This document shows, piece by piece, positions 21,687-59,579 of a stretch of DNA of 64,000 bases. Where the stretch lies: positions 234,571 through 298,570 of the forward strand of contig LCPF01000001.1 of assembly GCA_001003475.1 (NCBI GenBank), written 5' to 3'. The first letter of the stretch is position 1. Each line of letters starts with the position of its first letter. The DNA is from Candidatus Jorgensenbacteria bacterium GW2011_GWA1_48_11. Its GTDB lineage: Bacteria; Patescibacteriota; Minisyncoccia; UBA6257; GWB1-50-10. Made by a program: the position numbers and the translations under genes. The notes under the pieces were generated by a model. That model saw nothing but the letters and a program-made list of their open reading frames with translations. It was not told where the DNA came from and made no database searches.

Positions 21687-21698
21687 CCCAGATGATTT

Positions 21699-24050: not shown

Positions 24051-24619
24051 TATGTCCAAAACATGAGGCCGTAGTCCTCGGCTTCCTGGGAAGTGAGGTA
24101 AAAATCCCGGTCCGTGTCCTTCTCTATTTTTTCGAGCTTCTGGCCGGTATGTTTGGCCAGGATGTGGTTGATCTTGTCTTTTATTTTCACGATTTGTCTC
24201 GCCGTGATTTCAATTTCAGTGGCTTGGCCTTCGGCGCCGCCCATCACTTGATGCAGGAGAATTTCGGAATTGGGCAAAGCGAACCTTTTGCCTTTCTGGC
24301 CGGCGGCGAGCAAAACCGCGCCCATTGAAGCGGCCATGCCCACGCAAATCGTCGAAACCGGCGCTTTGACGTGTTGCATCGTGTCGTAGACCGCAAGGCC
24401 GGCCGTGACCGAACCGCCGGGCGTATTCAAATAAAGCTTGATATCTTTTTTCTGGTCTTCGTGGTCGAGGAGCAAAAGTTGGGCGATGACGCTGTTCGCC
24501 ACCTGGTCGTTGATCGGGCCGCCTAGAAAAATGATCCGCTCTTTTAAAAGGCGGGAGTAAATATCGTAAGCCCGCTCGCCGTAAGCCGATTTTTCGATGA
24601 CTGTAGGAATTAAATTCAT
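23882..24619 (-). CDS. clpP: ATP-dependent Clp protease proteolytic subunit, with a C-terminal extension of about 55 aa encoded by the tandem repeat
   Basis: N-terminal [32 protein letters not shown] and the catalytic Ser in GMAASMGA. The conserved core ends near …AEDYGLM (about codon 190). The ORF then reads through repeat units 3 and 2 and stops at the single-base difference of unit 1. Confidence 0.85.
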
Positions 24620-24723
24620 CCCGTTAGAAATGGAATCACCTGCGACGTTTTATTCTGGCCGCAATATTTTCGAAAAATACTCAGTTTAGTAATAGTTAGA
24701 ATATTGGCGCCATTTCTAACGGG
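24620..24723 (-). repeat. Leader element copy 1: about 104-bp unit bounded by 14-bp inverted repeats (CCCGTTAGAAATGG … CCATTTCTAACGGG), abutting the clpP ATG
   Basis: Arms at 24620-24633 and 24710-24723. On the minus strand the 3' arm ends …TTCTAACGGG and is immediately followed by the clpP ATG. The interior is homologous to copy 2 (…GCGGCCAGAATAAAA… against …GCGGTCTGAATCAAA…). Confidence 0.7.
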
Positions 24724-25211: not shown

Positions 25212-25344
25212 AATGCTTATATATAGTATAGCATTTTCGTTTCATAATTTTTAAAGCTAGGCTTGACTTTTTTATATAATATGCTATACTTATATAATCG
25301 AAGTTCATTGACAGTCTTATACAACCCTTTGCGAGGATACGACG

Positions 25345-26124
25345 GTGAAGCTCAAGCGCTTGTTCCACAGCGTGTGGGCGTTGGGCTTTGTCGCGTGTAG
25401 CGATAGCCCGATTGCTCCACCGCCACCGCCCCCGCCTCCCATCCCGCCTACTCTTTCGGTCACGACCAACGAGGTCGGTCCGGAGAGTGCGTTGGTCCAC
25501 GCCTCGGCAAACACAGCCGTAGCATGGCGCGTCTTCTGGGGTTCGACGCTTGCTTTCGGCGACACAACGCCGGAAACCAGTCCGTCGCCCGAGCTGAACC
25601 AAACCCTCCGGGGACTCCGAGCGCTCACCACCTATTACTATCAGGTGGAGGCGCGGCTGGATTCTCTGCGGGTGCGGCTCTCAGGCGAGTTCCGAACCCC
25701 CGACTACCCGGTTTGCGACAACCGGAACACGACTACGCCGACCGTGACAGTGACGATCACCTGGACTTCGCCGACGCCGCCGGTCATGGGAAACATTCCG
25801 GTTCTGGACAACGTCGATCTACGCGACTGCAACGGTAGGGTTCTGACCCAGAACGGTGATCAGTTTTTCAGCGGGAGTCCAGGCACGGTCCAGATGCGCG
25901 TGAACTATGGCTCCGGACCGCACTGGTTTGGAGGCATGGTTTTCACGAACGACATTTGGTTCGTGCGCTGGGTTGACGCTTCGGAATTCCGCGTGAACGG
26001 CGTTCGGCTCACCCAGCCTACGGATTCCATGCCGCCGACCTGGCCATGCCGGCCCGATGTCGGTTGCATCCCGGGGCCCCGCTGGAAGTTCTGGGTGGAC
26101 AGCCTGGGCGGTGTCCATTCCTAA
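25345..26124 (+). CDS. Putative lipoprotein with an FN3/PKD-like segment; high GC (about 62%)
   Basis: Signal peptide with the lipobox-like LGFVAC; a poly-Pro run (PPPPPPPPIPP); …TTYYYQVEA… beta-sandwich signature. Its GC content is clearly above the neighbours. Confidence 0.5.
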   Translation: MKLKRLFHSVWALGFVACSDSPIAPPPPPPPPIPPTLSVTTNEVGPESALVHASANTAVAWRVFWGSTLAFGDTTPETSPSPELNQTLRGLRALTTYYYQVEARLDSLRVRLSGEFRTPDYPVCDNRNTTTPTVTVTITWTSPTPPVMGNIPVLDNVDLRDCNGRVLTQNGDQFFSGSPGTVQMRVNYGSGPHWFGGMVFTNDIWFVRWVDASEFRVNGVRLTQPTDSMPPTWPCRPDVGCIPGPRWKFWVDSLGGVHS

Positions 26125-26242: not shown

Positions 26243-26348
26243 CCCGTTAGAAGCGGCTCTAAATAACTATCAAAAATATTAATAAAATGACTTTCCTTAA
26301 TTTAAGCGGTCTGAATCAAATGCGGAGTTTTGTTCCGCTTCTAACGGG
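26243..26348 (+). repeat. Leader element copy 2: inverted-repeat-bounded unit (CCCGTTAGAAGCGG … CCGCTTCTAACGGG) abutting the ATG of ORF 26349
   Basis: Arms at 26243-26256 and 26335-26348; the ATG is at 26349. An extended -10 TGTTATAAT lies at 26217-26225, so the element would be a transcribed 5' leader. Confidence 0.7.
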
Positions 26349-31236: not shown

Positions 31237-31986
31237 TCAAGCTTTCGTCAAGACAAAGCCGATTATTTTATGGGCGCCCGCTTCCTTCAGGAGACGGGCC
31301 GCTTCGTTCATGGTCGCGCCGGAAGTGAAAACATCGTCCACGAGAAAAACGTCTTTTCCTTTTAAAGATCCCGGATTTTTGAGGCCGAAAGAGCCGGCAA
31401 TGTTTTTTGTTCTCGCTTTATAATCTTTGCAGTCGGTTTGCGAAGCCGTCGGTTTTATTTTGACAAGGCAATCGTTCCCGATTGAAAGCGGTTGCGGCCG
31501 TTCGAATTTTCCAGCCAAAATTGTGGCAATAACTTCGGCAATTAGACGACCCTGGTTAAAGCCCCTTTGTCTTTCCTTGTTTTTATAAATCGGTATGGGA
31601 ACGAGGACCGTATTCTTTGGATCCATGTTGAATGTCGGCAATTTTTCCAGATATTCTTTTATCAATCCCGGCCAAGGCTTCAGGGAGGGAGTAAGACCGC
31701 CGTATTTAAGGGTTTGAATGAGTTCGCGGACGGGTTTTATTTCGTAGCTCGTGACGGCCGCCAAAATGAATTCCGCCCGGGAATGGCAGGTTTTCTCGGC
31801 TTGATAAAGGCGGCCGCCGCAGGCCGGACAGTAAAAACCGTTGTTTACCCGGATTTGGCGGCGGCACAGCCTGCAGATAAAGGTCGATTTTTCCTCGGTT
31901 GTCTCTAGGCGTTTTTTGCAGGCCAAGCATACCGGCGGAAACAAAATATTCAGAACATTTTGTCCAAACTGATCCAGCTTCATCAA
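31237..31986 (-). CDS. comFC: ComF-family competence protein (ComFC; phosphoribosyltransferase domain plus N-terminal zinc finger)
   Basis: N-terminal CxxC…CxxC and a C-terminal PRTase motif (…DVFLVDDVFTSGATM…). Confidence 0.8.
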   Translation of the reverse strand: MMKLDQFGQNVLNILFPPVCLACKKRLETTEEKSTFICRLCRRQIRVNNGFYCPACGGRLYQAEKTCHSRAEFILAAVTSYEIKPVRELIQTLKYGGLTPSLKPWPGLIKEYLEKLPTFNMDPKNTVLVPIPIYKNKERQRGFNQGRLIAEVIATILAGKFERPQPLSIGNDCLVKIKPTASQTDCKDYKARTKNIAGSFGLKNPGSLKGKDVFLVDDVFTSGATMNEAARLLKEAGAHKIIGFVLTKA

Positions 31987-32203: not shown

Positions 32204-33301
32204 ATGAAATTAGGCTTTTTGGATTTTTTCGGCGATATCGCCAATTTTTTGAGAGGCGGTTCGGTCTTGGGCGTCGATATCGGCACGAGCTCCATTAAAA
32301 TTGCGGAAATCTTGAAAAAAGGCGACAGCTTTCGGCTCGCCAATTACGGCATTCTGGAAACGAAAAGTTATCTGGAGCATCCGAATCAGGCTATTCAAAC
32401 CAGTTCCTTGCGGATCGTTGAAAAAGATGCGGCCGAACTTTTAAAAACCATGCTTAGGGAGATTAAGCCGAAGACGCGGACCGCGATCGCCTCAATACCG
32501 GCTTTCGTTTCTTTTGTGACGCCGATCGAGATGCCCCTCATGAAGCCCGACGAGACCTCGAAGGCCGTGGCTTTCGAAGCCAGGCAGTTGATCCCGCTGC
32601 CGCCCTCCGAGGTAACCTTGGATTGGCTGAAGATCGAAGAGTTTCAGGGATCGCGCGGCCAGAGCATGCAGCGCATTCTCTTGATGGGGGTGCCGAACGA
32701 GATCGTGAGGAAATACAAAACTATTTTTAAGACCGCCGACGTGAAGATCGCGGCTTTTGAAATCGAAAGCCTGGCTTTGGTGCGCGCTCTCGCCGGCGCC
32801 GATAACGTCCTGACCCTGTCTGTTGATATCGGCGCCGAAGCGACGAACATACTGGTCAGCGAAAACGGCGTATTGAAATATAACGGCGTCACCGACTACG
32901 GCGGCATTTACATCACCCAGGCCGTTGGCCGCAGTTTGGGCGTGAGTTCGATGCGGGCCGAGGAATTGAAACGCCGGCGGGGACTGACCGGCACCGGCGG
33001 TGAAATGGAGTTATCAACATTAATCGTGCCGTTTTTAGATGTTATAATACAGGAGTGCAGACACGTGGTTGATGTTTGCGAGCGGCGCTATGGCAAGCGA
33101 GCGGAAAAATTGATTTTGACCGGCGGGGGAGCGAATCTGCTGGGCATTGAAAAGTATTTCGTAAGCCAGTTGAATTTGCCGTTAGGTCAAGCTCCGCAGT
33201 TAAGCAACCTCGTTTACGAACCGGATCTGGAGCCAGCGCGGAAGGGGTTGGATAACGCTCTTTTGGTCGCCATCGGTTTAGCGAAAAGATATTTCAAATA
33301 A
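32204..33301 (+). CDS. pilM: Type IV pilus assembly protein PilM (actin-like ATPase)
   Basis: …VLGVDIGTSSIKIAE… N-terminal phosphate-1 motif and a …LTGGGANL… C-terminal motif. Confidence 0.8.
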   Translation: MKLGFLDFFGDIANFLRGGSVLGVDIGTSSIKIAEILKKGDSFRLANYGILETKSYLEHPNQAIQTSSLRIVEKDAAELLKTMLREIKPKTRTAIASIPAFVSFVTPIEMPLMKPDETSKAVAFEARQLIPLPPSEVTLDWLKIEEFQGSRGQSMQRILLMGVPNEIVRKYKTIFKTADVKIAAFEIESLALVRALAGADNVLTLSVDIGAEATNILVSENGVLKYNGVTDYGGIYITQAVGRSLGVSSMRAEELKRRRGLTGTGGEMELSTLIVPFLDVIIQECRHVVDVCERRYGKRAEKLILTGGGANLLGIEKYFVSQLNLPLGQAPQLSNLVYEPDLEPARKGLDNALLVAIGLAKRYFK

Positions 33302-33310
33302 TAAAATAAA

Positions 33311-33874
33311 ATGCCCGAGCCAACCACTCAAGCCAAATTGGAAGAACAGTTCACGACCGCGGCCATTCCGGTCGGTTTGCCGTGGCGGCTTTTGGTCTTC
33401 ACGATCATTATTTTCGCCTTCAGCATCGTGATTTATTTCGGTCTGCGCTTCGGTTACGAGAATTATTTGACTCAGCAGGGCGACAATCTGGATAAGCAGA
33501 TTGATCAGCTGACGAGCCAGGTCAATCAGACCGATCAGCAGAACTTCATTAATTTTTATTCCCAGCTTATCAATTTGAGAACGGTCCTGGGCAACCACGG
33601 TTTTTCCTCGAATGTTTTCGGTTTTCTCGAGAAAAACACGATCGGCTCCATTTATTACACCGAAGCCGATTTTTCCCGGGAAGGCAACGACTTGAATCTG
33701 GCCGGCGAAGCCGCTTCGGTTGACGCCCTGGTCCAGCAAATGAATATTTTCGACAAATCGCCGGCTTTGGCAAGCGTGAATTTGAATCAGCTCAATTTTG
33801 AATCCCGGGGTACCGTCGGCTTCAGCGTTCACTTGGTCTTTAATGAGGATTTCACGAGCAAACCGGCGCAATAA
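33311..33874 (+). CDS. pilN: PilN-like pilus assembly protein
   Basis: Single TM helix, coiled coil, periplasmic domain; position directly after pilM. Confidence 0.55.
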   Translation: MPEPTTQAKLEEQFTTAAIPVGLPWRLLVFTIIIFAFSIVIYFGLRFGYENYLTQQGDNLDKQIDQLTSQVNQTDQQNFINFYSQLINLRTVLGNHGFSSNVFGFLEKNTIGSIYYTEADFSREGNDLNLAGEAASVDALVQQMNIFDKSPALASVNLNQLNFESRGTVGFSVHLVFNEDFTSKPAQ

Positions 33875-34013
33875 CCCCTCACCTTTCAAAGATAAGAAGC
33901 TTAATCCGATCAATCTAACTATGTATAAAATGAAAACAACAAATTTTGCAAAAAAAGGGACGTTAATTTTTGAAGACCGCTTCCAAATAAGCGCAATCTT
34001 TGAAGGGTGAGGG
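33875..34013 (+). mobile_element. pil-junction element copy A: about 139-bp unit with 18-bp terminal inverted repeats (CCCCTCACCTTTCAAAGAT … ATCTTTGAAGGGTGAGGG) and a 29-codon mini-ORF (33921..34010)
   Basis: The left repeat starts immediately after the pilN TAA. The right repeat ends in GGG immediately before the pilO ATG. The mini-ORF MYKMKTTNFAKKGTLIFEDRFQISAIFEG stops at a TGA inside the right repeat, 3 nt before the pilO ATG. The interior is about 80% identical to copy C. Confidence 0.7.
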
Positions 34014-34580
34014 ATGAAGACTTCCACTAAAAGAATTTTGAGTATCGGCCTCGCGGGCCTGCTTTTGGTCGGCACGCTCGTGGTTTACGTAAGCTTCATT
34101 AAGCCGGAAATAGACGTTATCGCCCAGGAGCGGTCCTTGGCCGTTTCCAAGGCCAATTTGTTCAGCGATCAGAAAGCGGCCGTTCAGGGCGTCCAGAAAT
34201 TGATCGCTCAATTCCAGAGCATTACGTCCATTCAGCAGGACGTTAATCTGGAAATGCCGATCGGAGCCAATACGACCCAGGCCTTAAACCAAATCCAATC
34301 CGTTACTCGTTTGAACCAGGTGAATCTCAATTCCCTTTCGATCAAAGCCGAATCTTTTTTGCCCAGCCGTCAGCCTTTGGCCAAGCGACTGGGGACGCTG
34401 ACCGTGAACATGGCCGTGACCGGCGCCTATGACAATATCAAGGGATTTTTGCGGGCTTTGGAGACCAACGTCCGGGTAGCAAACACGAAAACTTTTACCA
34501 TCAGTCCGGTTAGTGGCCTGAACCAGAATAATTATTCCCTGACGCTTTCGGTCGAAATTTATTACCAGGAAGGTTCATAA
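34014..34580 (+). CDS. pilO: PilO-like pilus assembly protein
   Basis: N-terminal TM helix, coiled coil, C-terminal domain; gene order pilM-N-O. Confidence 0.55.
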   Translation: MKTSTKRILSIGLAGLLLVGTLVVYVSFIKPEIDVIAQERSLAVSKANLFSDQKAAVQGVQKLIAQFQSITSIQQDVNLEMPIGANTTQALNQIQSVTRLNQVNLNSLSIKAESFLPSRQPLAKRLGTLTVNMAVTGAYDNIKGFLRALETNVRVANTKTFTISPVSGLNQNNYSLTLSVEIYYQEGS

Positions 34581-34584
34581 AATC

Positions 34585-34875
34585 ATGGCTATTGAATTTG
34601 AAGAAGAGAAAAAACCGGTCAATTGGGTCGCGATTCTTACGGTCATCGTGATCGTGGCGGTGCTGTTTTTCGGCAGCTATTATTTGTTTTTCAAGCAGCC
34701 GCAACTCATCGAGGTGGTGGCGCCGAAGTCGCTCCAAACGATCGGCAGCCTTTCCAAGCTTTCTTTTGATCCGTCGACGGTGGTGAACGACCCGACGCGC
34801 AAACTGCTCCGTCAATACGGCACGAACGTTCAGCCGGTCACGCCCGGCCGCAGCAATCCCTTCCAGCCGTTTTAA
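34585..34875 (+). CDS. Small membrane protein (96 aa) ending …NPFQPF
   Basis: TM helix plus a short periplasmic tail. A paralogue-like protein at 53518..53805 ends …INPF. Confidence 0.4.
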   Translation: MAIEFEEEKKPVNWVAILTVIVIVAVLFFGSYYLFFKQPQLIEVVAPKSLQTIGSLSKLSFDPSTVVNDPTRKLLRQYGTNVQPVTPGRSNPFQPF

Positions 34876-34941
34876 ATATTCATCCCGATCCGCCTAAGTT
34901 TTGCGAAGCAAAATTTTGGCGGGGAGGTTAAGCAGATTTAA

Positions 34942-35054
34942 CCCCGCACCTTTATGGCAGAGACTAAAACCATGTATCAAAGTAGAGCCGCAGGCGAACC
35001 GCTTCGCTCTTATTTTAATTTGCAATTCAAATCTTTGCAGCAAAGGTGCGGGGT
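34942..35054 (+). mobile_element. pil-junction element copy D (divergent): CCCCGCACCTTT … AAAGGTGCGGGG inverted repeats enclosing a 39-codon ORF that starts ATGTATCAAAG…
   Basis: Same architecture and the same ATGTAT(A/C)AA mini-ORF start as copies A and C; it lies between the small-protein gene and pilB. Confidence 0.5.
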
Positions 35055-35113
35055 GCTTAATGTTGTAGCTAAATTTACTACGCATTGAGCTTGTAAATTT
35101 AGACAACATTGGC

Positions 35114-36844
35114 ATGACCGACCAAGAATTATTCAAGGAATTAACCAAACGGCAAATTTTAACGGCCGCTACCGCCAATAAAATTCTGAAAGAGGCCGAC
35201 CTTTCCGGTTCTTCGGCTGAGAACATGCTTTACGAGCAGCGTCTGGTCGACGACGTGGCGGTTGCCAAAGTGAAGAGCGAGCTTATCGGCGCGCCTTACA
35301 AGAAAATCGAGCCGTCTTCCATTTCCGACGATCTTTTAAAAGTTATTCCTCGGGAGGTTTCCCAAAATTACAAAGTGGTTCCGATCGAACGAAGCCGGGA
35401 TTTGCTCGTGGTGGGAATGCTGCGTCCGGACGATCAACGAGCGCAGGAGACGCTGAAATTCATTGCCAAGCAATTACGGGTTTCTTTGGGCGTTTACATC
35501 GTGACGCCGTCGGATTTAGCCGCCGTTTGGCGCCGATACGCCCCTTATTCGAGCGAAATTGAAGCGGCCGTGAAGGAAATGGGGGCGGTCGTGAACCGCG
35601 AAGAAGGCATTGTTTCCCTCGAAGAGGGCGCGGCGAGCGCCGAAGACGCGCCGATCATAAAAATCGTGGCTACGACCCTGCGGCAGGCTGTTGAGATTTT
35701 AGCTTCCGATATTCACATCGAGCCGCAAAGAAAAAGATTACGCATTCGTTTCCGGGTTGACGGCAAACTCGAGGAAGCGGTTTCGCTTCCGACGGCTTTG
35801 AGTCAGCCGGTCCTTTCGCGGGTCAAGGTTTTGGCGAAATTGCGCCTTGATGAGACGAGGATTCCCCAGGACGGCCGTTTTCGAACGATCATTGCCGGCC
35901 GGGACATCGATTATCGGGTTTCCACCTTCCCGACGCCTAACGGCGAAAAAGTTGCCATTCGGGTTTTGGATCCCACAACCGGCCTTAAGGGTTTGAAGGA
36001 AATCGGTTTAAGCGATTACAATTTCCGGATTTTGAACGAAGCCGTCGAGGCGCCTTACGGCATGGTTTTGATCACCGGCCCGACCGGTTCCGGTAAAAGT
36101 ACGACCCTTTATGCCATCATGCAGAAAATAAATTTGCCGGACGAGAATATCGTAAGTTTGGAAGATCCGGTCGAGTATTTCATGGAGGGCATCAATCAGT
36201 CCCAAGTGCGGCCGGAGATCGGTTACGATTTCGCCTCCGGTTTGCGGGAGATTTTGCGGCAGGACCCGGACGTGATCATGGTGGGCGAGATCCGCGACGC
36301 CGAGACCGCCGGTTTGGCCGTAAACGCGGCCTTGACCGGCCACATGATGCTCTCGACGCTCCATACCAATAATGCCCTGGGGGTCGTGCCCCGCTTAATC
36401 GATTTGGGCGTGCCCGGTTTCCTTTTGACCTCTTCCCTGAATCTGATGCTGGCTCAAAGATTGGTGGCCCGGCTGTGTCCCAACTGCAAAAAACCGGCGG
36501 TTGCTTCAGCCGAAGCCCAGAAGGTGATCGGCGAGACGCTCGAGAATCTGCCGGTCGAACTCAAGAAGGAAATCAAAGTCAAGCCGCCTTACCAGATTTA
36601 CCACGCCGAACCAGACCCGAATTGCAAGATTTGCAAAGGCAAAGGCGTGGTCGGCCGAATCGCGCTTTTCGAAATATTCAAAATGACCAAGGAATTGGGC
36701 GAGATCATCTCCTCCGGCTTTACGGAAAGCAAATTGGCGGTCGAAGCCCGACGCCAGGGCATGGTCACTTTGCGGGAAGACGGCATTTTGAAGGTGCTCG
36801 AAGGCACGGTATTATTAGAAGAGGTGATTAAAGAAACGGAATAA
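35114..36844 (+). CDS. pilB: Type IV pilus assembly ATPase PilB (GspE family)
   Basis: N-terminal GSPII_E_N domain, Walker A GPTGSGKSTTLYA, Asp and His boxes, tetracysteine CPNC…CKIC. Confidence 0.9.
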   Translation: MTDQELFKELTKRQILTAATANKILKEADLSGSSAENMLYEQRLVDDVAVAKVKSELIGAPYKKIEPSSISDDLLKVIPREVSQNYKVVPIERSRDLLVVGMLRPDDQRAQETLKFIAKQLRVSLGVYIVTPSDLAAVWRRYAPYSSEIEAAVKEMGAVVNREEGIVSLEEGAASAEDAPIIKIVATTLRQAVEILASDIHIEPQRKRLRIRFRVDGKLEEAVSLPTALSQPVLSRVKVLAKLRLDETRIPQDGRFRTIIAGRDIDYRVSTFPTPNGEKVAIRVLDPTTGLKGLKEIGLSDYNFRILNEAVEAPYGMVLITGPTGSGKSTTLYAIMQKINLPDENIVSLEDPVEYFMEGINQSQVRPEIGYDFASGLREILRQDPDVIMVGEIRDAETAGLAVNAALTGHMMLSTLHTNNALGVVPRLIDLGVPGFLLTSSLNLMLAQRLVARLCPNCKKPAVASAEAQKVIGETLENLPVELKKEIKVKPPYQIYHAEPDPNCKICKGKGVVGRIALFEIFKMTKELGEIISSGFTESKLAVEARRQGMVTLREDGILKVLEGTVLLEEVIKETE

Positions 36845-36948
36845 TCCCTTACCCTTCAAAAATTATGAAATTTATTTTAAGAGCAAAATTAGGCATTCAG
36901 GAAAAAGCTTCTTTGTCGGGAAGCGAATTTATATTTAAAGGGTGAGAG
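36845..36948 (+). mobile_element. pil-junction element copy B: TCCCTTACCCTTCAAAAAT … ATTTAAAGGGTGAGAG with a 26-codon mini-ORF (36865..36945)
   Basis: Starts right after the pilB TAA and ends immediately before the pilT ATG. The mini-ORF MKFILRAKLGIQEKASLSGSEFIFKG ends in a TGA 3 nt before the ATG. Confidence 0.6.
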
Positions 36949-38022
36949 ATGACGGACTACAAGGCTAAGTTGGACGAGCTCTTGATGACGACGGCGAAAC
37001 AGAACGCTTCGGATTTGCATTTGGCGGTCGGCCGCCGGCCGACGATCAGGGTGGACAGCGTTCTTATCCCCATTGCCAAGGAAGCGATCTTGACCAAGGA
37101 AGACGCCGAGGGTCTCGCGATGGCGCTTTTGAACGATGCCCAGAAGAAAGAATTTTTGGAAAAACGGGAGCTCGACCTTTCCTATAATTTTGAAGATAAG
37201 GCCCGGTTCCGGGTGAATGTTTATTTCCAGCGCGGATTTATGGCTGCCGCCCTGCGTTTGATTCCGGCCCAGATCAAGACAATTGAGGAGTTGAATCTGC
37301 CGCCGCTTTTGCATGATTTCACCAGGTTGAAGCAGGGATTCATTTTAATGACCGGCCCGGCCGGCCACGGCAAGTCCACCACTCTGGCGGCTCTCTTGGA
37401 TGAGATCAATCACAAGCGGACTGACCACATCATTACGATTGAAGACCCGATTGAATATTTGTTTTCCCAGGATCGTTGCATCATTTCCCAACGGGAAGTG
37501 GGGTTGGACACTTTTTCTTTTCAAGACGGCCTTCGTTCGATTTTGCGGCAGGATCCGGACGTGATCATGTTGGGCGAAATCCGCGACCCGGAGACGATGG
37601 CGACAGCGATGACGGCTGCCGAAACCGGCCATTTGGTTTTTTCGACCATGCATACCAATTCCGCTTCCCAGACCATTGATCGAATGATCGACAGCTTCCC
37701 GCCGAACCAGCAGGGTCAGATCATTTCCCAACTCGCTTCGACTCTGATCGCCGTGGTTTCGGAACGTTTGGTGCCGCGTTTGGGCGGCGGCCGAGTGCCA
37801 GCGGCCGAAATCATGATCGCGAACGCCGCCATCCGCAATTTGATCCGCGAAAAGAAGATTTACCAGATCGATTTGGTGATCGAAACCTCGATTCAGGAAG
37901 GAATGATGTCTTTAAATCGTTCACTCGTGAGCCTCGTCAGGAAAAAAGAGATTTCTTTGGAACAAGCCGAAGGTTATTCCTTGAACCCGGCCGAACTCAG
38001 GATATTATTAGAAAGAGCCTAA
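36949..38022 (+). CDS. pilT: Twitching-motility ATPase PilT
   Basis: Walker A GPAGHGKSTTLAA and the PilT-type Asp and His boxes; 357 aa. Confidence 0.85.
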   Translation: MTDYKAKLDELLMTTAKQNASDLHLAVGRRPTIRVDSVLIPIAKEAILTKEDAEGLAMALLNDAQKKEFLEKRELDLSYNFEDKARFRVNVYFQRGFMAAALRLIPAQIKTIEELNLPPLLHDFTRLKQGFILMTGPAGHGKSTTLAALLDEINHKRTDHIITIEDPIEYLFSQDRCIISQREVGLDTFSFQDGLRSILRQDPDVIMLGEIRDPETMATAMTAAETGHLVFSTMHTNSASQTIDRMIDSFPPNQQGQIISQLASTLIAVVSERLVPRLGGGRVPAAEIMIANAAIRNLIREKKIYQIDLVIETSIQEGMMSLNRSLVSLVRKKEISLEQAEGYSLNPAELRILLERA

Positions 38023-38159
38023 TCCCTCACCCTTCAAAGATATGAAGCTTAATCCAATCAATAAAATAATGTTTATGAATAAAACAGGCCGATTTCATAA
38101 AGGGTCGTTAATCATCAAAGACCGCTTCGAGAAGAAGCGTAATCTTTGAAGGATGAGGG
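38023..38159 (+). mobile_element. pil-junction element copy C: TCCCTCACCCTTCAAAGATA … TAATCTTTGAAGGATGAGGGA with a 26-codon mini-ORF (38069..38149)
   Basis: Starts right after the pilT TAA and ends 1 nt before the pilC ATG. The mini-ORF MFMNKTGRFHKGSLIIKDRFEKKRNL is close to copy A's (…KGTLIFEDRF…). Confidence 0.7.
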
Positions 38160-39365
38160 ATGAAATTCGGTTATAAAGCGAGGACGAAAGAAGGGGAATT
38201 GCAGGTGGGGAACGTCGACGCCTCGAATCGCGACAGTGCCCTCTCGATCCTTTTGAGTCACGGGCTTTACGTCCTTACGATCGAGCCGGTCATTGAGGAA
38301 AGATGGTACGACCGGATATTGAGTTTTTTCAAGAAGGTCAAAGCCGACGACATCATGATCTTTACGCGGCAGTTTGCGACGCTTTTGGCCTCGCAGGTGC
38401 CCTTATCCGACAGCTTGGCCAATCTTTACAAACAAGTTACCAATCCGACCCTGAAGGAGGCGGTTGCGGAGATCGCCTCGGACATTGATGCCGGCTTTTC
38501 CCTGTCTCAAGCCCTGGAGCGGCATACCGCCATTTTTTCCGCTTTTTACATCAACATGGTGAAATCGGCCGAAGTCACCGGCCGATTGGCCGAAGTGCTG
38601 GACTTCTTGGCCGACTATCTGGAGAAGCAGGCGACTTTGGTCGCGAAAGTGAAGAACGCCCTCATTTACCCGGTGATCGTGATCGCGCTTTTCCTCGTTG
38701 TCGTCGTCATTATGGTGACCGTGGTTTTGCCGCAAATCACGCCGGTCTTCAAGGAAACCAACGTTAAATTGCCGTTCTTTACCGAGGTTTTGCTTACGGT
38801 CGGCACTTTTGTCGCCGATTGGTGGTGGGCACTCGGCATAATTTTGATAATTCTTTTTTTGATGGTCGTTGATTATTTCCAATCGAAGGAAGGGAAAGTG
38901 GTTTTCGACGAGCTCTCCTTGCGACTGCCCGTCGTGGGGCCGATGTTCCAGAAACTTTTCATCGCCCGTTTCGCCGAGTCGAGCCGGGTCCTGATCAAAG
39001 GCGGGCTCACCATTCCCCAAGCGATCGAAATTTCCTCGCGTACCATCAGCAACGCGGTCTATCAGGATTTGCTCCACGAAGCGGCGATCCAGATCAGGAA
39101 GGGCCAGCTTTTATCGAAGACCTTGGCGCAAATGCCCGAGTTTCCGCCCCTGGTTTCCCAGCTCGTTTCGGTCGGCGAGTCCACTGGCCGACTGGAACAG
39201 CTTTTGGAGAAAATAAACGATTTTTACACGCGTCAAGTGGAAGACGTGGTCAATAACCTGGTAAGTTTGATCCAGCCGATCTTAATGGTGGTGATCGGCG
39301 TGATGATCGCTATTTTATTCGCTTCCATTCTTTTGCCGCTTTACGATTTGGCGCGGACCTTCTGA
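38160..39365 (+). CDS. pilC: Type IV pilus platform protein PilC (GspF family)
   Basis: Two GspF repeats and three TM segments; 401 aa. Confidence 0.85.
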   Translation: MKFGYKARTKEGELQVGNVDASNRDSALSILLSHGLYVLTIEPVIEERWYDRILSFFKKVKADDIMIFTRQFATLLASQVPLSDSLANLYKQVTNPTLKEAVAEIASDIDAGFSLSQALERHTAIFSAFYINMVKSAEVTGRLAEVLDFLADYLEKQATLVAKVKNALIYPVIVIALFLVVVVIMVTVVLPQITPVFKETNVKLPFFTEVLLTVGTFVADWWWALGIILIILFLMVVDYFQSKEGKVVFDELSLRLPVVGPMFQKLFIARFAESSRVLIKGGLTIPQAIEISSRTISNAVYQDLLHEAAIQIRKGQLLSKTLAQMPEFPPLVSQLVSVGESTGRLEQLLEKINDFYTRQVEDVVNNLVSLIQPILMVVIGVMIAILFASILLPLYDLARTF

Positions 39366-39378: not shown

Positions 39379-39387
39379 TGTTATAAT
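39379..39387 (+). promoter_or_regulatory. Extended -10 TGTTATAAT upstream of the major pilin gene
   Basis: An exact TGnTATAAT lies about 47 nt upstream of the pilin ATG. Confidence 0.4.
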
Positions 39388-39433
39388 TAGAACAATCTTT
39401 CAAGGTCGACAGTTTAATCAAAAATAAACAAAA

Positions 39434-47208: not shown

Positions 47209-47283
47209 CGCAGCCGACGGGATTCGAACCCGTGATCTTCTCCGTGACAGGGAGACGTGTTAACCAGGCTACACTACGGCTGC
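47209..47283 (-). tRNA. tRNA-Asp (anticodon GTC)
   Basis: Acceptor GCAGCCG/CGGCTGC, anticodon stem TCTCC/GGAGA with loop CTGTCAC, T-loop TTCGAAT. Confidence 0.8.
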
Positions 47284-47344
47284 ATCAATGCCACTTTATC
47301 AAGATTTGGGAAAAATGACAATAATCCCTTCCCATTTTTTGGTA

Positions 47345-47785
47345 TTAGTAGTGTTTAATAGTGATTATTGGCGTACAGGCTTTTATAAATTCTTCTAGAG
47401 TTGATTCCATAACTCCCCCTTGCTCTATAATCGGTTTTTCGTTTGTTCTTTTGGAAGCGGCGTGGATGATTGCGTCGTTGCCGACATAAACGCCGACATG
47501 GCCGATGCCTTGCGGAAAACGGGGATTGTAATGGCCGTGCGTGCCGTGGGCGAAAATAAGGTCACCGACCTCCAGATTTTCCAAGTTCGTTTCTCGGCCT
47601 TCGGCCGCTTGCTCGATCGTGCTTCGTGGGATGGCGATCCCTATTTGCTTCAAAATATATTGCGTGAATGAAGAGCAGTCAAAAAAATCCGGCGCCTCCT
47701 CCTCCTTGGCGCCATATTTGTAGGGTTTACCGATCAGGCTTTTGGCCAAAGCCACGATTTTTTCTTTTTGTGTTTCGGTCGTCAT
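47345..47785 (-). CDS. NlpC/P60 (C40) family cell-wall peptidase
   Basis: Catalytic Cys in FDCSSF and His in GHVGVYVG. Confidence 0.75.
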   Translation of the reverse strand: MTTETQKEKIVALAKSLIGKPYKYGAKEEEAPDFFDCSSFTQYILKQIGIAIPRSTIEQAAEGRETNLENLEVGDLIFAHGTHGHYNPRFPQGIGHVGVYVGNDAIIHAASKRTNEKPIIEQGGVMESTLEEFIKACTPIITIKHY

Positions 47786-47789
47786 TCTG

Positions 47790-47861
47790 TGCCGGCAGCA
47801 GGGATTGAACCTGCGACCTAGGGCTTATGAGTCCCTCGCTCTGCCACTGAGCTATGCCGGC
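47790..47861 (-). tRNA. tRNA with anticodon CAT (elongator Met or lysidine-modified Ile2; not initiator, since 1:72 is G-C)
   Basis: Acceptor GCCGGCA/TGCCGGC, anticodon loop CTCATAA, T-loop TTCAATC; A31·G39 mismatch. Confidence 0.7.
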
Positions 47862-48013
47862 AAAATATTGTTGCGGGAATTGGAACTGCCCCAACTTAAA
47901 CAAGGTTATGAGCCTTGCGAGATACTAATACCTCCCTCCCGCACCATTAAGATATAACGATTTTCCAAATTTGGCAAATTTGGATATAATGGATTTAAAA
48001 TAAACCTTGATTT

Positions 48014-49165
48014 ATGGCGGGATTGAATGAAAGAAAGACGATAGAAGATCCGGCGGTCCGGGCCGTGCTTGATCGCTTGGAAAAAAAAGAAGACATCAAA
48101 AGCTTGCGCATTAAGCGGCTTTTGGCCGCGCCCGACCTCACTCGAACCGCAGGCTCGCCCTTGAAGATGATCATTGATGCGATTATCGCGATGCCGCGTT
48201 TCCGTGATTTTGACCTTCTCCAAGTGCCGGAAATCGTGAGCGTCAAGAATAATTTTGATCTGTTGAATACGCCCTTGGACCACCCGAGTCGGCGGGAAAC
48301 GGATACTTATTATCCGGAAAAAGAATGGGTTTTGCGGACGCATACGACCGTGATGTGGCCCTATCATTTGTCGGATGAAGTCAGGAATAAATTGGAAGAA
48401 AAAAACGAAGTCGGCGCTCTTTGCTACGGCAAGGTTTACCGAAAGGATGAGATCGACCGTTCCCATTATCCCGTTTTCCATCAGATTGACGGCTGGTATC
48501 TTTGTCGCAAGGACAAAAAAATAATCGGCATCCCGGAGCTCGAGGAGGTCTTGCTCGATATCGCGAAGAATATTTACGGGCCGGCGGTGAATTACAAATT
48601 TTCGGAAGACACTTTTCCGTTTACGGATCCGAGTATTGAAATGGCCATTGAATCGAACGGCAATTGGTTCGAAATTCTCGGCGCGGGCGTGGTTCATACC
48701 GAAGTTTTGAGAAAGTTGGGGATTGATCCGAACGTCTGGAACGGCTGGGCCTTCGGCTTCGGCCTGGAACGTCTCGTGATGGCCAAAATGAACGTCCCGG
48801 ACATCCGCATTTTCTGGTCCAAAGACCCGCGGATCACGAGCCAGTTCAGGAATTTAGAGAGCGTTTATCGCGAGGTGAGCAAATATCCGATGACCTACCG
48901 CGATATCTCGTTTGTCATCGGCAATGGCGTCGATTTGAAAAACTATTACGAGATGGTGAGGGATTGCGCTCAAGACTTGGTTGAAGAGGTGAAATTGCTC
49001 GATACCTATGAGAACGAAGAGAAGTTCGGCAGGGACAAAAAAAGTTACACCTTTCGCATTGTCTATCGCTCGCCGGAAAGAACGCTTACGAACGAAGAGG
49101 TGGACAAGATCCAAAAAGAAATAGAAACCCGCACGAAAGAAGAATTCGGCGCTGCGGTTCGGTAA
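48014..49165 (+). CDS. pheS: Phenylalanyl-tRNA synthetase alpha subunit
   Basis: Class II motifs, including …FPFTDPSIEMAI… and …GAGVVHTEVL…. No pheT follows; recG is next, on the opposite strand. Confidence 0.85.
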   Translation: MAGLNERKTIEDPAVRAVLDRLEKKEDIKSLRIKRLLAAPDLTRTAGSPLKMIIDAIIAMPRFRDFDLLQVPEIVSVKNNFDLLNTPLDHPSRRETDTYYPEKEWVLRTHTTVMWPYHLSDEVRNKLEEKNEVGALCYGKVYRKDEIDRSHYPVFHQIDGWYLCRKDKKIIGIPELEEVLLDIAKNIYGPAVNYKFSEDTFPFTDPSIEMAIESNGNWFEILGAGVVHTEVLRKLGIDPNVWNGWAFGFGLERLVMAKMNVPDIRIFWSKDPRITSQFRNLESVYREVSKYPMTYRDISFVIGNGVDLKNYYEMVRDCAQDLVEEVKLLDTYENEEKFGRDKKSYTFRIVYRSPERTLTNEEVDKIQKEIETRTKEEFGAAVR

Positions 49166-49235
49166 GTTTTTGAATTTTTAGATTTACCGTCATAACACGC
49201 GATCGCAAGTTATGTTGGTAATGTTTCTAAAATTT

Positions 49236-59364: not shown

Positions 59365-59579
59365 CCCTTTGGAAACAGAACAAATGTCCGTGTTTGGTCC
59401 AGACTTTCTGGATTGTGGTAAATCATACGATGGCTGTTTTTTTGTCTTTTATTAAAGCTGTTTCTAAAGGGATGAATGTGGATAGATTAGATTTGGCGGA
59501 TTGGTCTTATGTTATAATTAATTCAGTTAATATCAAAGGTCGAACTTACTAGTCAATTTATTATTCAGAACAGCAAATT

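What the first reader, a model, noticed from the sequence alone, without database searches (positions are those of the whole stretch)
33875..38162. TIR-bounded 100–140 bp elements with a conserved mini-ORF sit exactly in the stop/start junctions of the type IV pilus operon
Four copies of one element occupy the pilN|pilO, small-ORF|pilB, pilB|pilT and pilT|pilC junctions. Each begins directly after the TAA of the upstream gene with (T/C)CCCTCACCCTTCAAAGAT and ends with the inverse ATCTTTGAAGGGTGAGGG followed directly by the ATG of the downstream gene. Copies A (33875-34013) and C (38023-38159) are about 80% identical across their interiors; copies B and D are more diverged but keep the architecture.

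Copies A–C each carry a 26–29-codon ORF (MYKMKTTNFAKKGTLIFEDRFQISAIFEG, MKFILRAKLGIQEKASLSGSEFIFKG, MFMNKTGRFHKGSLIIKDRFEKKRNL). Its TGA lies inside the right repeat exactly 3 nt before the pil gene ATG, the classic geometry for termination–reinitiation coupling. The inverted repeats could also pair as a long helix that brings the upstream stop next to the downstream start.

This looks like either a MITE-like mobile element that has colonised the operon or a dedicated inter-cistronic translational-coupling or attenuator cassette. I do not recognise it as a described element such as Correia, RUP/BOX, ERIC or REP.
Basis: seen in the sequence. Interest (0 to 1): 0.8.

Follow-up and report, generated by a model that had tools for sequence, protein, structure and literature searches.

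The report
Hairpin elements wedged at gene starts
Three 100–140-base hairpin-forming inserts between type IV pilus genes belong to a large, apparently undescribed family that sits exactly between the stop codon of one gene and the start codon of the next in ultra-small (CPR) bacteria lacking ordinary ribosome-binding sites, and they probably keep translation of the two genes coupled.

Summary
The fourth (small ORF|pilB) belongs to a different conserved family.

The three are not pil-specific. The same arms occur as paired inverted repeats in many Patescibacteria genomes and metagenomes. The context is almost always TAAT[CCCTCAC…GTGAGGG]ATG, including junctions of ribosomal-protein operons.

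- The terminal helix is always about 20 bp. Only its outer part (AUCCC(UCAC)/(GUGA)GGGAU) is conserved; the rest covaries.
- The elements are polar with respect to the gene.
- Paralogues within one genome are 90–96 % identical.
- Close relatives of the source (Ca. Jorgensenbacteria) have empty pil junctions of 1–13 nt, or unrelated hairpins there.
- All host genomes examined lack Shine-Dalgarno motifs.

Best reading: a copy-and-paste, MITE-like element family confined to start codons. Its helix hides the start codon until a ribosome from the upstream gene, or from a short ORF that ends in the right arm, opens it. Membership of the family, gain and loss, and the anatomy are shown. The coupling mechanism is inferred.

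Rivals are purely selfish DNA with a start-codon target, and an RNA-processing "punctuation" signal. No match was found in Rfam or in the literature searched.

The parts
33875..34013 (+). Family-1 element in the pilN|pilO junction (139 nt). Left arm 33876-33893, right arm 33996-34013. The pilN TAA is at 33872-33874 and the pilO ATG at 34014.
   Evidence: The helix scores 13.5/14 and ends exactly at the ATG; the null maximum is 12.
36845..36948 (+). Family-1 element in the pilB|pilT junction (104 nt, the most diverged copy). Arms 36846-36863 and 36931-36948. TAA at 36842-36844, ATG at 36949.
   Evidence: Helix score 11.5/14. Fold z-score only -0.9.
38023..38159 (+). Family-1 element in the pilT|pilC junction (137 nt). 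Arms 38024-38041 and 38142-38159; with the flanking AT on each side the repeat is 20 nt. TAA at 38020-38022, ATG at 38160.
   Evidence: I5: 20 nt, 95 % complementary; z -4.5. The sequence is identical in six independent assemblies of the same strain.
34876..35113 (+). Spacer between the small ORF and pilB. It holds a member of a different conserved family: hairpin 1 with arms 34941-34963 and 35032-35054, and hairpin 2 at 35054-35113, whose 3' strand ends at the pilB ATG (35114).
   Evidence: MFE -90.8 kcal/mol, z -7.3. Homologues lie in the L13|S9, S17|L14, tuf|S10 and S10|L3 junctions of other genomes.
33921..34010 (+). Mini-ORF of 29 codons inside the pilN|pilO copy. Its TGA lies in the right arm, 3 nt before the pilO ATG. 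The same frame is open from the first base of the left arm (33876).
36865..36945 (+). Mini-ORF of 26 codons inside the pilB|pilT copy. Its TGA lies 3 nt before the pilT ATG.
   Evidence: 1 % of shuffles give an ORF this long.
38042..38149 (+). Mini-ORF of 35 codons that starts directly after the left arm of the pilT|pilC copy. It ends at the TGA 10 nt before the pilC ATG.
26243..26348 (+). Family-2 element, with arms CCCGTTAGAAGCGG/CCGCTTCTAACGGG. The helix ends exactly at the ATG of the gene at 26349. A 21-codon uORF overlaps that ATG as ATGA. A TATAAT box lies about 13 nt upstream of the left arm.
   Evidence: 14/14 pairs.
24620..24723 (-). Family-2 element, with arms CCCGTTAGAAATGG/CCATTTCTAACGGG. 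It ends at the ATG of the minus-strand gene 23882-24619. The upstream flank is TAATGAAT.
   Evidence: 14/14 pairs.
59365..59471 (-). Family-2-like element, with arms CCCTTTAGAAACAG/CTGTTTCCAAAGGG. It ends at the ATG of the minus-strand gene 58657-59364. Its other end abuts a plus-strand ATG at 59472.
   Evidence: 13/14 pairs.
32204..39365 (+). Host operon: pilM 32204-33301, pilN-like 33311-33874, pilO 34014-34580, small ORF 34585-34875, pilB 35114-36844, pilT 36949-38022, pilC 38160-39365.
   Evidence: Pfam hits: PilM_2, PilO (just below cut-off), T2SSE twice, T2SSF. ORF list.

Best explanation
WHAT IT IS (shown). The three strong copies belong to a large family of 95-175-nt polar hairpin elements. 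The family occurs in Patescibacteria whose genes lack Shine-Dalgarno sequences.

Each element is bounded by a terminal helix of about 20 bp.
- The outer pairs (A-U, U-A, C-G, C-G, C-G, usually continuing UCAC/GUGA) are nearly invariant.
- The inner 11 or so pairs covary freely.
- The 3' strand ends in the A and U of the downstream start codon.
- The 5' strand usually begins with the last A of the upstream stop codon, giving TAAT[...]ATG.

The interior is AT-rich and evolves fast. The elements are gained, lost and copied between gene junctions, including ribosomal-protein operons. They are therefore not pil regulators. In the source genome (Ca. Jorgensenbacteria GW2011_GWA1_48_11) three of them were inserted into junctions that are 1-13 nt long in relatives.

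HOW IT MOST LIKELY WORKS (inferred). These organisms appear to start translation either on leaderless mRNAs or by termination-reinitiation at overlapping or abutting stop and start codons. A 100-140-nt insert would normally break that coupling.

Here the helix folds the insert out of the way and buries the start codon. A ribosome that reaches the upstream stop codon, 1 nt from the helix, must unzip the outer turn of the left arm. That frees the start codon, which then lies right beside the ribosome.

In other copies the same is achieved by one of two routes:
- a ribosome starting at a duplicated start codon just upstream of the left arm;
- a ribosome translating a short loop ORF that stops at one of the stop codons the right arm offers in all three frames (TGA at -13, TGA at -6, TGA at +2).

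Downstream translation thus stays slaved to upstream translation. This is the 'RNA unfolding' form of translational coupling, carried by a portable element.
For: Family and distribution.
- A genome scan with one 18-mer arm found paired +/- arms 80-175 nt apart only in Patescibacteria MAGs. There were 52 pairs in more than a dozen genomes.
- A metagenome scan using only the 9-10-nt core found 140 matches.

Position.
- Of 55 copies, 51 are followed directly by ATG, and 48 of those start an ORF of at least 50 codons.
- 34 copies are preceded by a stop codon 1 nt away that closes an ORF of at least 50 codons.
- Flank conservation: -2 A in 55/55, -1 T in 52/55, +1 A in 54/55, +2 T in 55/55, +3 G in 51/55.
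- In the core-only metagenome set, 74 copies have an intact helix and a downstream ORF. Of these, 49 have TAAT or TGAT on the left and 30 have an ATG within 8 nt upstream of the left arm. Only 6 have neither.

Helix.
- Positions -2 to 18 are paired in 86-100 % of 58 distinct arm pairs. Pairing drops to 29 % at position 19. Up to 5 pair types occur per column.
- Slid controls give 34-53 % pairing.
- In the core-only set, positions 8-18 are 77 % paired against 38-52 % when slid.
- RNAalifold finds this helix and nothing else.

Polarity. Interiors match in the same orientation relative to the gene in 209 of 221 pairs. This holds for copies on opposite DNA strands a few kb apart (L010 1941-/6013+; window 24620-/26243+).

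Gain and loss.
- L116 (PilT 90 % identical): pilT|pilC is TAA-C-ATG and pilB|pilT is TAA-A-ATG.
- L118 and L125: junctions of 2-13 nt.
- L118, L126 and L127 carry other arm families at pil junctions.
- Paralogues at different junctions of one genome are 90-96 % identical inside.

Translation context.
- Window genes have no SD, and many show TATAAT-N6-8-ATG.
- SD motifs are at or below background in all element-bearing genomes examined.
- A subgroup of Parcubacteria lacks the anti-SD (PMC9297842).

Mini-ORFs.
- ORFs ending at right-arm stop codons average 11.5 codons against 4.2 in shuffles. 22 of 55 copies have one of at least 10 codons.
- ORFs from the left-flank ATG run through the whole element in 9 of 33 cases, against 7 % expected.

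Precedent. RNA-unfolding coupling over +52 nt is described for rpmI-rplT and for f1 genes VII/IX in PMC12548453.
Against: - No expression data exist. Every step after 'the helix can form' is inference.
- The stop codon sits at exactly 1 nt from the helix. Unfolding would work over a range of distances, so this exactness fits an insertion-site rule (TAATG plus AT) better than selection for coupling.
- In a partition-function model with the left arm held open, the start region is only partly freed. P(unpaired) for -9..-1 rises from 0-0.12 to 0.23-0.64. In the pilT|pilC copy the AUG re-pairs elsewhere.
- Some copies have neither a flush stop, nor a left-flank ATG, nor a mini-ORF. Examples are several TTAT-flanked copies in the AT-rich cluster.
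- The constant 20-bp helix length and the invariant helix end look like recognition by a protein. Ribosome unwinding does not need either.
- Rapid turnover between close relatives shows that the host does not need any particular copy.
Confidence: 0.45

Rival explanations
1. Purely selfish, functionless mobile DNA. On this reading the element is MITE-, REPIN- or PATE-like, and its insertion or copying mechanism targets the start-codon region. That could be TAATG with duplication of AT, or template switching between microhomologies ...AT and ATG(AA). Flushness and polarity would then be by-products of the target. The helix would simply be the pair of terminal repeats or a DNA hairpin recognised by an enzyme.
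For: - Paralogues within one genome are 90-96 % identical.
- Relatives have empty sites.
- Solo and decayed arms exist: L084 and L119.
- Elements are nested within elements (L019 1971, L083 3208).
- The stop-to-helix distance is exact, and AT is invariant on both sides.
- Direct repeats of 2-9 nt starting with ATG link the left flank and the gene start. Examples are ATGAGTGAT and ATGGGA.
- The helix length is constant and its end invariant.
- Turnover is fast.
Against: - No transposase or long partner element turned up. No arm pairs more than 250 nt apart occur in 100 loci, though this was a weak test.
- Arm sequences beyond the 7-9-nt core are highly diverse yet always complementary. That does not fit sequence-specific binding of terminal repeats.
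- The repeat length is variable, unlike the target-site duplications of known transposases.
- The unrelated 'B' family reaches the same geometry, a helix ending at the ATG, with a local hairpin that is not a terminal repeat. This points to selection on the RNA.
- Inserts of 100-170 nt persist inside ribosomal-protein operons of very small, streamlined genomes.
- Part of this rival is compatible with the best explanation: mobile origin, RNA-level constraint.
Confidence: 0.25
2. RNA-processing 'punctuation'. The 20-bp helix is a substrate for RNase III or an unknown structure-specific endonuclease. Cleavage cuts the polycistronic RNA at the junction. It leaves the upstream mRNA with a protective 3' stem and the downstream mRNA with its AUG at or near the 5' end. 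Ribosomes of an SD-less, leaderless-prone organism could use such an mRNA. The analogy is tRNA punctuation in mitochondria and RNase III sites between T7 early genes.
For: - The helix length is fixed at about 20 bp, two helical turns, whatever the sequence, and the helix end is invariant.
- The AUG sits exactly at the helix base in three unrelated families.
- The host genomes lack SD and show leaderless-type promoters.
- In L095, arms of the 'B' type enclose a complete tRNA-Arg, as a processing stem would.
Against: - From general knowledge, RNase III cuts inside a helix, not at its base. The A and U of the AUG are themselves paired, so a 5'-AUG end needs an enzyme with no known precedent.
- Processing does not explain the left-flank classes (flush stop or nearby ATG).
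- It does not explain stop codons in all three frames of the right arm, or the mini-ORF enrichment.
- No RNA-end data are available.
Confidence: 0.17
3. A dedicated regulator of the pil operon. This would be an attenuator or partial terminator cassette that sets the pilB:pilT:pilC ratio, or mini-ORF peptides with a function of their own.
For: - Each window copy has a small GC hairpin followed by a T-rich stretch just before the right arm: 38123-38139 and 36907-36924.
- All three family-1 copies in the 64-kb window lie in the pil operon.
- The mini-ORFs are longer than in shuffles.
Against: - The same family sits at S13|S11, L6|L18, L2|S19, L16|L29, and before MreB, TGT, aminoacyl-tRNA synthetase genes and others.
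- Relatives' pil junctions lack it.
- Terminator-like hits are barely above chance in the region: 20 found against 12 ± 3.7 expected.
- Peptide sequences and frames are not conserved, and the ORF is absent from most AT-rich copies.
Confidence: 0.04

Closest known systems
Correia elements (CREE) of Neisseria and other bacterial MITEs (RUP, BOX, ERIC)
   Same: They are small (about 100-160 bp), non-coding, multi-copy and bounded by inverted repeats. They are co-transcribed with neighbouring genes, can form a long RNA hairpin, and show presence/absence differences between strains.
   Different: - There is no sequence similarity.
- Correia elements duplicate TA and insert in either orientation at scattered intergenic sites. 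This statement rests on general knowledge and was not tested here.
- The present elements are polar.
- They sit flush against start codons.
- Only the outer part of the repeat is conserved while the rest covaries.
- Their flanking repeats are of variable length.
REP/BIME elements and REPINs mobilised by RAYT transposases; IS200/IS605-derived palindrome-associated elements
   Same: They are extragenic repeated palindromes recognised as structure rather than sequence, often lying directly after stop codons. REPINs are hairpins of about 100 nt made of two inverted units. IS200/IS605-type insertion next to a fixed tetranucleotide gives a fixed orientation and no duplication. That would fit the conserved left flank TAAT.
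   Different: - The individual arms are not palindromes.
- No GTAG-type head was seen.
- No RAYT or TnpA gene was seen, though none was systematically searched for.
- Flushness with the downstream ATG and residence inside ribosomal-protein operons are not REP properties.
Translational coupling by RNA unfolding (E. coli rpmI-rplT, phage f1 VII/IX, MS2 coat-lysis/replicase)
   Same: A long-range helix sequesters the downstream start region, and the ribosome translating the upstream cistron opens it (PMC12548453).
   Different: - In the known cases the pairing partner lies inside the upstream coding sequence, the pairing is locus-specific, and the masked element includes an SD.
- Here both strands belong to a portable repeated insert.
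- The partner starts 1 nt after the stop codon.
- There is no SD.
Bicistronic designs / leader-ORF termination-reinitiation
   Same: A short upstream ORF whose stop codon overlaps or abuts the main start codon (ATGA, or TGA-N3-ATG). Translating it melts structure and delivers ribosomes to the main start.
   Different: The ORF is present in only part of the family, and no SD drives it. This is a resemblance in function only.
RNase III processing stems (rRNA operons, T7 early mRNA) and mitochondrial tRNA punctuation
   Same: A structured spacer between functional RNAs, with a helix formed by sequences flanking an insert and a length of about two helical turns.
   Different: Cleavage is untested. 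The known enzymes do not cut at the base of a helix.

Membership tests
MITE (miniature inverted-repeat transposable element) | Terminal inverted repeats bounding a short non-autonomous sequence | tested here: met
   The arms are 18-20 nt and 90-100 % complementary, and the elements are 95-175 nt long.
MITE (miniature inverted-repeat transposable element) | Many dispersed, similar copies within one genome | tested here: met
   At least 10-15 copies lie in the sampled parts of MAGs CAYOSD01, CAZXNT01 and JBBTVF01, with paralogues 90-96 % identical. For the source genome only the 64-kb window could be read. It holds 3 copies, all in one operon.
MITE (miniature inverted-repeat transposable element) | Target-site duplication of fixed length | tested here: inconclusive
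   AT on both sides is nearly invariant, but AT is self-complementary. It could therefore be a duplication or part of the helix. A subset shows direct repeats of 5-9 nt that start with ATG, so the length is variable.
MITE (miniature inverted-repeat transposable element) | Filled versus empty sites in related genomes | tested here: met
   Empty sites in L116: pilT|pilC is TAA-C-ATG and pilB|pilT is TAA-A-ATG. L118 and L125 have junctions of 2-13 nt.
MITE (miniature inverted-repeat transposable element) | Either orientation with respect to neighbouring genes | tested here: not met
   Interiors match in the same orientation relative to the downstream gene in 209 of 221 pairs.
MITE (miniature inverted-repeat transposable element) | An autonomous partner element or transposase with the same ends | not tested
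   No arm pairs more than 250 nt apart occur in the fetched loci. Proteins of the host genomes were not screened for transposases.
REP/REPIN (RAYT-associated) | Each repeat unit is itself an imperfect palindrome with a conserved head tetranucleotide, and a RAYT gene is present | tested here: not met
   The arm CCCTCACCCTTCAAAGAT is not self-complementary. Presence of a RAYT gene was not tested.
Integron attC site | Conserved core sites RYYYAAC and GTTRRRY at the ends, lying between mobile cassettes | tested here: not met
   The ends are ATCCC...GGGAT. The flanking genes are core operon genes in conserved order.
Any Rfam family (cis-regulatory RNA, riboswitch, leader) | Covariance-model match at or near the gathering score | tested here: not met
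   Scanning the window at gathering threshold found only tRNAs. Scanning the region at E ≤ 10 found nothing on the elements. Scanning eight element-rich loci at E ≤ 0.1 also found nothing on them.
Translational coupling by RNA unfolding | The downstream start region is buried in a stable helix | tested here: met
   The 20-bp helix includes the A and U of the AUG. The consensus folding energy is about -30 kcal/mol.
Translational coupling by RNA unfolding | The other strand of the helix lies within reach of ribosomes translating the upstream ORF | tested here: met
   A stop codon lies 1 nt before the left arm in 34 of 55 copies and 49 of 74 copies. Alternatively an ATG lies within 8 nt upstream, in 30 of 74 copies.
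Translational coupling by RNA unfolding | Downstream translation depends on upstream translation | not testable with these tools
   This needs reporters, ribosome profiling or proteomics. The thermodynamic proxy supports it only partly.
RNase III processing site | A double-stranded segment of about two helical turns | tested here: met
   Pairing extends to position 18 and collapses at position 19 in both data sets.
RNase III processing site | Cleavage of the RNA in vivo | not testable with these tools
   No RNA-end data are available.

The most novel reading that the evidence does not exclude
A stable helix whose 3' strand ends exactly at the start codon may be a general gene-start signal of SD-less Patescibacteria. 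At least three unrelated element families carry it: CCCTCAC-type, CCCGTTAG-type and the 'B' type. It could mark internal cistrons either for ribosome hand-over across the helix base or for precise endonucleolytic release of leaderless mRNAs. That would be a bacterial counterpart of mitochondrial tRNA punctuation, spread through genomes by copy-and-paste.
Probability: 0.2. Interest if true: 0.92.

Novelty: new variant of a known kind. Interest (0 to 1): 0.74.

Why it matters
Patescibacteria (CPR) make up a large share of bacterial diversity, and many of them lack the Shine-Dalgarno system. How they start translation on internal genes of operons is unknown.

This element family sits exactly on stop/start junctions, even inside ribosomal-protein operons of genomes under 1 Mb. 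That shows 100-170-nt inserts can be tolerated there only in one very specific architecture.

- If the coupling model holds, the family is a natural, portable 'translation-transparent' insert and a direct handle on SD-independent reinitiation.
- If the processing model holds, it is a new way of punctuating bacterial operons.

There is also a practical consequence for annotation. Gene callers place pilC starts inconsistently around the element (401 versus 386 aa), and they call spurious small ORFs across such elements.

Tried and rejected
- Rfam, three scans: no family matches the elements.
- Literature, seven searches including the literal motif strings: nothing describes them. The only hits for the short family-2 strings are in unrelated papers, and the two family-1 arm strings have none.
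- Right arm as a Shine-Dalgarno site with the left arm as a mimic of the 16S tail: rejected. Neither the window nor any element-bearing genome shows SD enrichment.
- Phage origin: the viral-contig scan gave two single-arm hits, consistent with chance.
- Long autonomous partner: no arm pairs lie more than 250 nt apart in the loci. This is a weak test.
- Conserved internal RNA structure: RNAalifold on 12 Parcubacteria-type copies returns only the terminal helix. A hairpin next to the right arm is visible by eye but does not align.
- Whole-element open reading frame (PSPFKD...): present in all three window copies but in only 8 of 55 overall, so it is not a family property.
- Peptide conservation: related copies shift frame yet keep an ORF that reaches the right arm. 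Too few substitutions exist for a Ka/Ks test.
- BLAST of the window interiors against 230 loci: no hits. Interiors diverge fast.
- Thermodynamic 'unmasking' model: only partial support.
- Pil-specific regulator: rejected from the distribution.
- Integron attC and Correia membership: rejected on the end sequences.

Full report
**1. The observation**

The region 32.2-39.4 kb encodes pilM, a pilN-like gene, pilO, a 96-aa ORF, pilB, pilT and pilC (Pfam; ORFs).
- pilN|pilO, 33875-34013.
- pilB|pilT, 36845-36948.
- pilT|pilC, 38023-38159.

Each follows the upstream TAA after a single base and ends directly at the downstream ATG. With up to three mismatches, the 18-mer CCCTCACCCTTCAAAGAT matches exactly six places in the 64-kb window. 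These are the six arms; 0.1 matches are expected by chance. The pilN|pilO and pilT|pilC copies share blocks of 81-91 % identity. Folding gives an 18-20-bp terminal helix, with z-scores of -3.6, -4.5 and -0.9.

The fourth 'copy', in the 238-nt spacer before pilB, is different. Its repeat (CCCCGCACCTTT/AAAGGTGCGGGG, 34941-35054) starts 65 nt after the stop codon and ends 59 nt before the ATG.

The mini-ORFs exist. In the pilT|pilC copy, however, the ORF ends at the other TGA of the right arm, 10 nt before the ATG rather than 3 nt.

**2. Where the window comes from**

The PilT protein is 100 % identical to one from Candidatus Jorgensenbacteria bacterium GW2011_GWA1_48_11, from Rifle groundwater. 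Six independent assemblies of this strain carry identical elements.

**3. The element is a large family, not a pil feature**

Matches outside Patescibacteria were single arms, as chance predicts. In Patescibacteria MAGs the arms came as +/- pairs 80-175 nt apart. Depositors label these MAGs Saccharibacteria, Liptonbacteria, Brennerbacteria, Wolfebacteria or 'Patescibacteria group'. There were 52 pairs, up to six in one 8-kb stretch.

After orienting each copy by its neighbouring genes:
- 51 of 55 copies, window included, are followed directly by ATG;
- 48 of those start an ORF of at least 50 codons;
- 34 are preceded, one base away, by a stop codon closing an ORF of at least 50 codons.

Flank conservation is extreme.

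| Position | Base | Copies out of 55 |
|---|---|---|
| -4 | T | 48 |
| -3 | A | 42 |
| -2 | A | 55 |
| -1 | T | 52 |
| +1 | A | 54 |
| +2 | T | 55 |
| +3 | G | 51 |

The context is therefore TAAT[element]ATG.

The flanking genes are mostly ribosomal-protein cistrons: S13|S11 four times, L6|L18 three times, L2|S19, L16|L29, S19|L22 and others. MreB, TGT, aminoacyl-tRNA synthetases, an ABC transporter and PilC also occur.

**4. Anatomy**

I compared 58 distinct arm pairs, including related arm families from Jorgensenbacteria relatives.
- Positions -2 to 18 are paired in 86-100 % of cases, and position 19 in only 29 %.
- The five outermost pairs (A-U, U-A, C-G, C-G, C-G) hardly vary. Positions 4-14 show two-sided changes such as U-A to G-C to C-G.
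- Sliding one strand by 1-3 nt drops mean pairing from 81 % to 34-53 %.

To remove ascertainment on the arms, I scanned metagenomes with only the core, ATCCCTCAC-N(100-130)-GTGAGGGATG. Beyond the core the arms are very diverse: CTTCAAAGAT, ATAACTAAGAC, CGCATGGCTGA, CAGAAATTATT and others. They are still complementary. Positions 8-18 are 77 % paired over all 126 distinct matches, chance ones included, against 38-52 % when slid. The helix again stops at position 18. It is thus a 20-bp helix of fixed length with a conserved end and a free middle.

RNAalifold on 12 copies recovers this helix only (about -30 kcal/mol). The interiors are AT-rich and fast-evolving; the window interiors have no BLAST hit in 230 loci. 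By eye they carry a hairpin of variable sequence just 5' of the right arm. In Parcubacteria-type copies this is often GTCGCGAAGCGAC.

The right arm contains TGA at -13 and at -6. When the gene starts ATGA, as in 37 of 55 copies, there is also TGA at +2. That gives one stop codon in each frame within 13 nt of the start.

**5. Polarity**

Once copies are oriented by gene direction, interior similarity is same-strand in 209 of 221 pairs. The 12 exceptions are short palindromic matches. Copies on opposite DNA strands a few kb apart each follow their own gene (L010 1941- and 6013+; window 24620- and 26243+). Replication-strand bias therefore does not explain the polarity.

**6. Gain, loss and copying**

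The table lists pil junctions in relatives with 82-90 % identical PilT.

| Locus (PilT identity) | State of the pil junctions |
|---|---|
| L116 (90 %) | pilT|pilC = TAA-C-ATG; pilB|pilT = TAA-A-ATG |
| L125 (86 %) | junctions of 2, 3, 7 and 13 nt |
| L118 (85 %) | four junctions of 2-12 nt (pilM|pilN, also listed, is 3 nt); pilT|pilC holds a hairpin with arms CCCGTTAGAAGTC/GACTTCTAACGGG ending at the ATG |
| L119 (85 %) | the same pilT|pilC element with its left arm deleted |
| L126, L127 | further arm types (CCCGTTAATAATA, CCCGTTAGAGACC, CCCTCACATAAAC) at pilN|pilO and pilT|pilC |

Within single genomes, copies at different junctions are 90-96 % identical inside. Solo arms occur, as in L084 (TAAT + left arm + AG + ATG of pilC), and so do elements nested within elements. 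The elements are therefore copied to new junctions and decay. No particular copy is conserved.

**7. Translation context**

None of about 60 window genes has a Shine-Dalgarno motif. Many have TATAAT 6-8 nt before the ATG, a leaderless-type arrangement, or abutting stop and start codons. GGAG/GAGG upstream of genes is at or below background in every element-bearing genome sampled. A subgroup of Parcubacteria is reported to lack the anti-SD (PMC9297842). The G-rich right arm is therefore not an SD.

**8. More families with the same geometry**

I scanned all window gene starts for a helix whose 3' strand ends at -1. Six genes score 11.5-14 out of 14, against a null maximum of 12. Three are the pil copies. 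The other three are 'family-2' elements (CCCGTTAGAA.../...TTCTAACGGG) at 26243-26348, 24620-23 (that is, 24620-24723) and 59365-59471. Their extensions covary: GCGG/CCGC, ATGG/CCAT, ACAG/CTGT.

It has conserved flanks and two hairpins, and the second hairpin ends at the ATG. Homologues lie in L13|S9, S17|L14, tuf|S10 and S10|L3 junctions. Here the flush helix is a local hairpin, not a terminal repeat. This is why I think flushness is selected at the RNA level and does not merely follow from an insertion rule.

**9. Left-flank classes and mini-ORFs**

In the core-only metagenome set, 74 copies have an intact helix and a downstream ORF.
- 37 have TAAT on the left.
- 12 have TGAT on the left.
- 30 have an ATG within 8 nt upstream of the left arm. 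These often form a direct repeat with the gene start: ATGAGTGAT, ATGGGA, ATGGAT, ATGAAT, ATGAT.
- Only 6 have neither a flush stop nor a nearby ATG.

ORFs from that left ATG always run into the left arm. They run through the whole element in 9 of 33 cases, against 7 % expected.

ATG-initiated ORFs that end at the right-arm stop codons average 11.5 codons against 4.2 in shuffles. At least 10 codons are reached in 22 of 55 copies, mostly the non-AT-rich Parcubacteria type, including all three window copies. Related copies shift frame yet still reach the right arm. If anything is selected it is translation, not a peptide.

**10. Mechanism**

*Shown:* family membership, anatomy, polarity, positional rule, turnover and the SD-less hosts.

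*Inferred:* the helix buries the start codon, and a ribosome must open it. That ribosome either terminates 1 nt from the left arm, starts at the nearby duplicated ATG, or translates a loop ORF into the right arm. This is the RNA-unfolding form of translational coupling, for which rpmI-rplT (+52 nt) and f1 VII/IX are precedents (PMC12548453). Here a portable insert carries it, in organisms that otherwise rely on abutting stop and start codons.

*Weak points:*
- The one-base spacing is more exact than unfolding requires.
- A partition-function model frees the start region only partly.
- Some copies have no evident ribosome route.
- The fixed 20-bp length and invariant end suggest recognition by a protein.

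*Rivals:*
- Selfish DNA whose copying mechanism targets ...AT/ATG microhomologies. This would also give polarity and variable repeats.
- Endonucleolytic punctuation producing separate, perhaps leaderless, mRNAs.
- A pil-specific attenuator. This is effectively excluded by the distribution; terminator-like hits in the region are near chance.

**11. Comparison and novelty**

The closest kinds are Correia-type MITEs and REPINs for the DNA side, and RNA-unfolding coupling for the RNA side. Membership of the MITE class fails on random orientation and is inconclusive on a fixed target duplication. REP, attC and all Rfam families fail outright. I found no description in Rfam or in seven literature searches.

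I rate it a new variant of known kinds, with a real chance that the start-codon-flush helix is a general and new gene-start device of SD-less Patescibacteria.

Noticed in passing
L095 641-817 (CAYOSD010000008.1): The 'B'-type arms CCCCGCACCTTTT/AAAAGGTGCGGGG (677-781) enclose a complete tRNA-Arg(CCG) (692-765, ARAGORN). The whole unit lies inside what reads like the anticodon loop of an outer tRNA (acceptor GTCCTCG...CGAGGACA, T-arm CAGGTTCGATTCCTG). This could be an intron-like insert carrying a tRNA, or a disrupted tRNA gene.
   Followed up: partly
window 26243-26348 (+), 24620-24723 (-), 59365-59471 (-): A second family of start-codon-flush hairpin elements (CCCGTTAGAA.../...TTCTAACGGG, about 105 nt) lies outside the pil operon. 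The copy at 26243 follows a TATAAT box and carries a 21-codon uORF overlapping the main ATG as ATGA. The copy at 59365-59471 has an ATG abutting each end on opposite strands.
   Followed up: partly
window, all gene starts (for example 27649, 22653-23798(-), 41256, 45423, 31237-31983(-)): No Shine-Dalgarno motifs occur anywhere. Many genes have TATAAT 6-8 nt upstream of the ATG, suggesting leaderless mRNAs. Other genes have abutting or overlapping stop and start codons.
   Followed up: partly
L084 5880-5920 (CAYIOP010000008.1): A solo left arm lies between the pilT stop codon and the pilC start codon (TAAT-CCCTCACCCTTCAAAGAT-AG-ATG) in a distant MAG. The same junction as in the window therefore carries a remnant of the element.
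   Followed up: no
L035 ~400-660, minus strand (Brennerbacteria JACPKE010000063.1): An ORF of about 95 codons starts ATGAAC followed by the left-arm sequence. The arm is thus translated as the N-terminus MNPSPFKD... of a helical-looking protein, and no partner arm is nearby.
   Followed up: no
window 39385-39417 (pilC|pilin spacer): A 33-nt stretch is 70 % identical to the right-arm region (AATTAGAACAATCTTTCAAGGTCGACAGTTTAA). It could be a relic arm or chance. The spacer also has a TATAAT-like box (GTTATAAT).
   Followed up: no
L118 3510-3521 and L119 (pilB|pilT spacer TAATCTTCAAAAATCATG): This 12-nt spacer in relatives resembles the outer and inner ends of the window's left arm (TAATC...TTCAAAAAT). 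It may be a footprint of an excised or collapsed element.
   Followed up: no
L001 versus L002/L004/L005 gene calls around window 38160: The same DNA is annotated with pilC starting at the element-flush ATG (401 aa) in some assemblies and 45 nt downstream (386 aa) in others. In L126 a 43-codon ORF was called across an element. The elements disturb automatic start-site calling.
   Followed up: no
window 13677-21783 and 47209-58400: The window is unusually rich in tRNA genes: 16 at the Rfam gathering score, in several clusters.
   Followed up: no
window 25300-26124: This is a GC-rich stretch with a proline-rich run (CCACCGCCACCGCCCCCGCCTCCCATCCCGCC) and two overlapping ORFs. Its composition is unlike the neighbouring genes, so it may be foreign DNA.
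   Followed up: no
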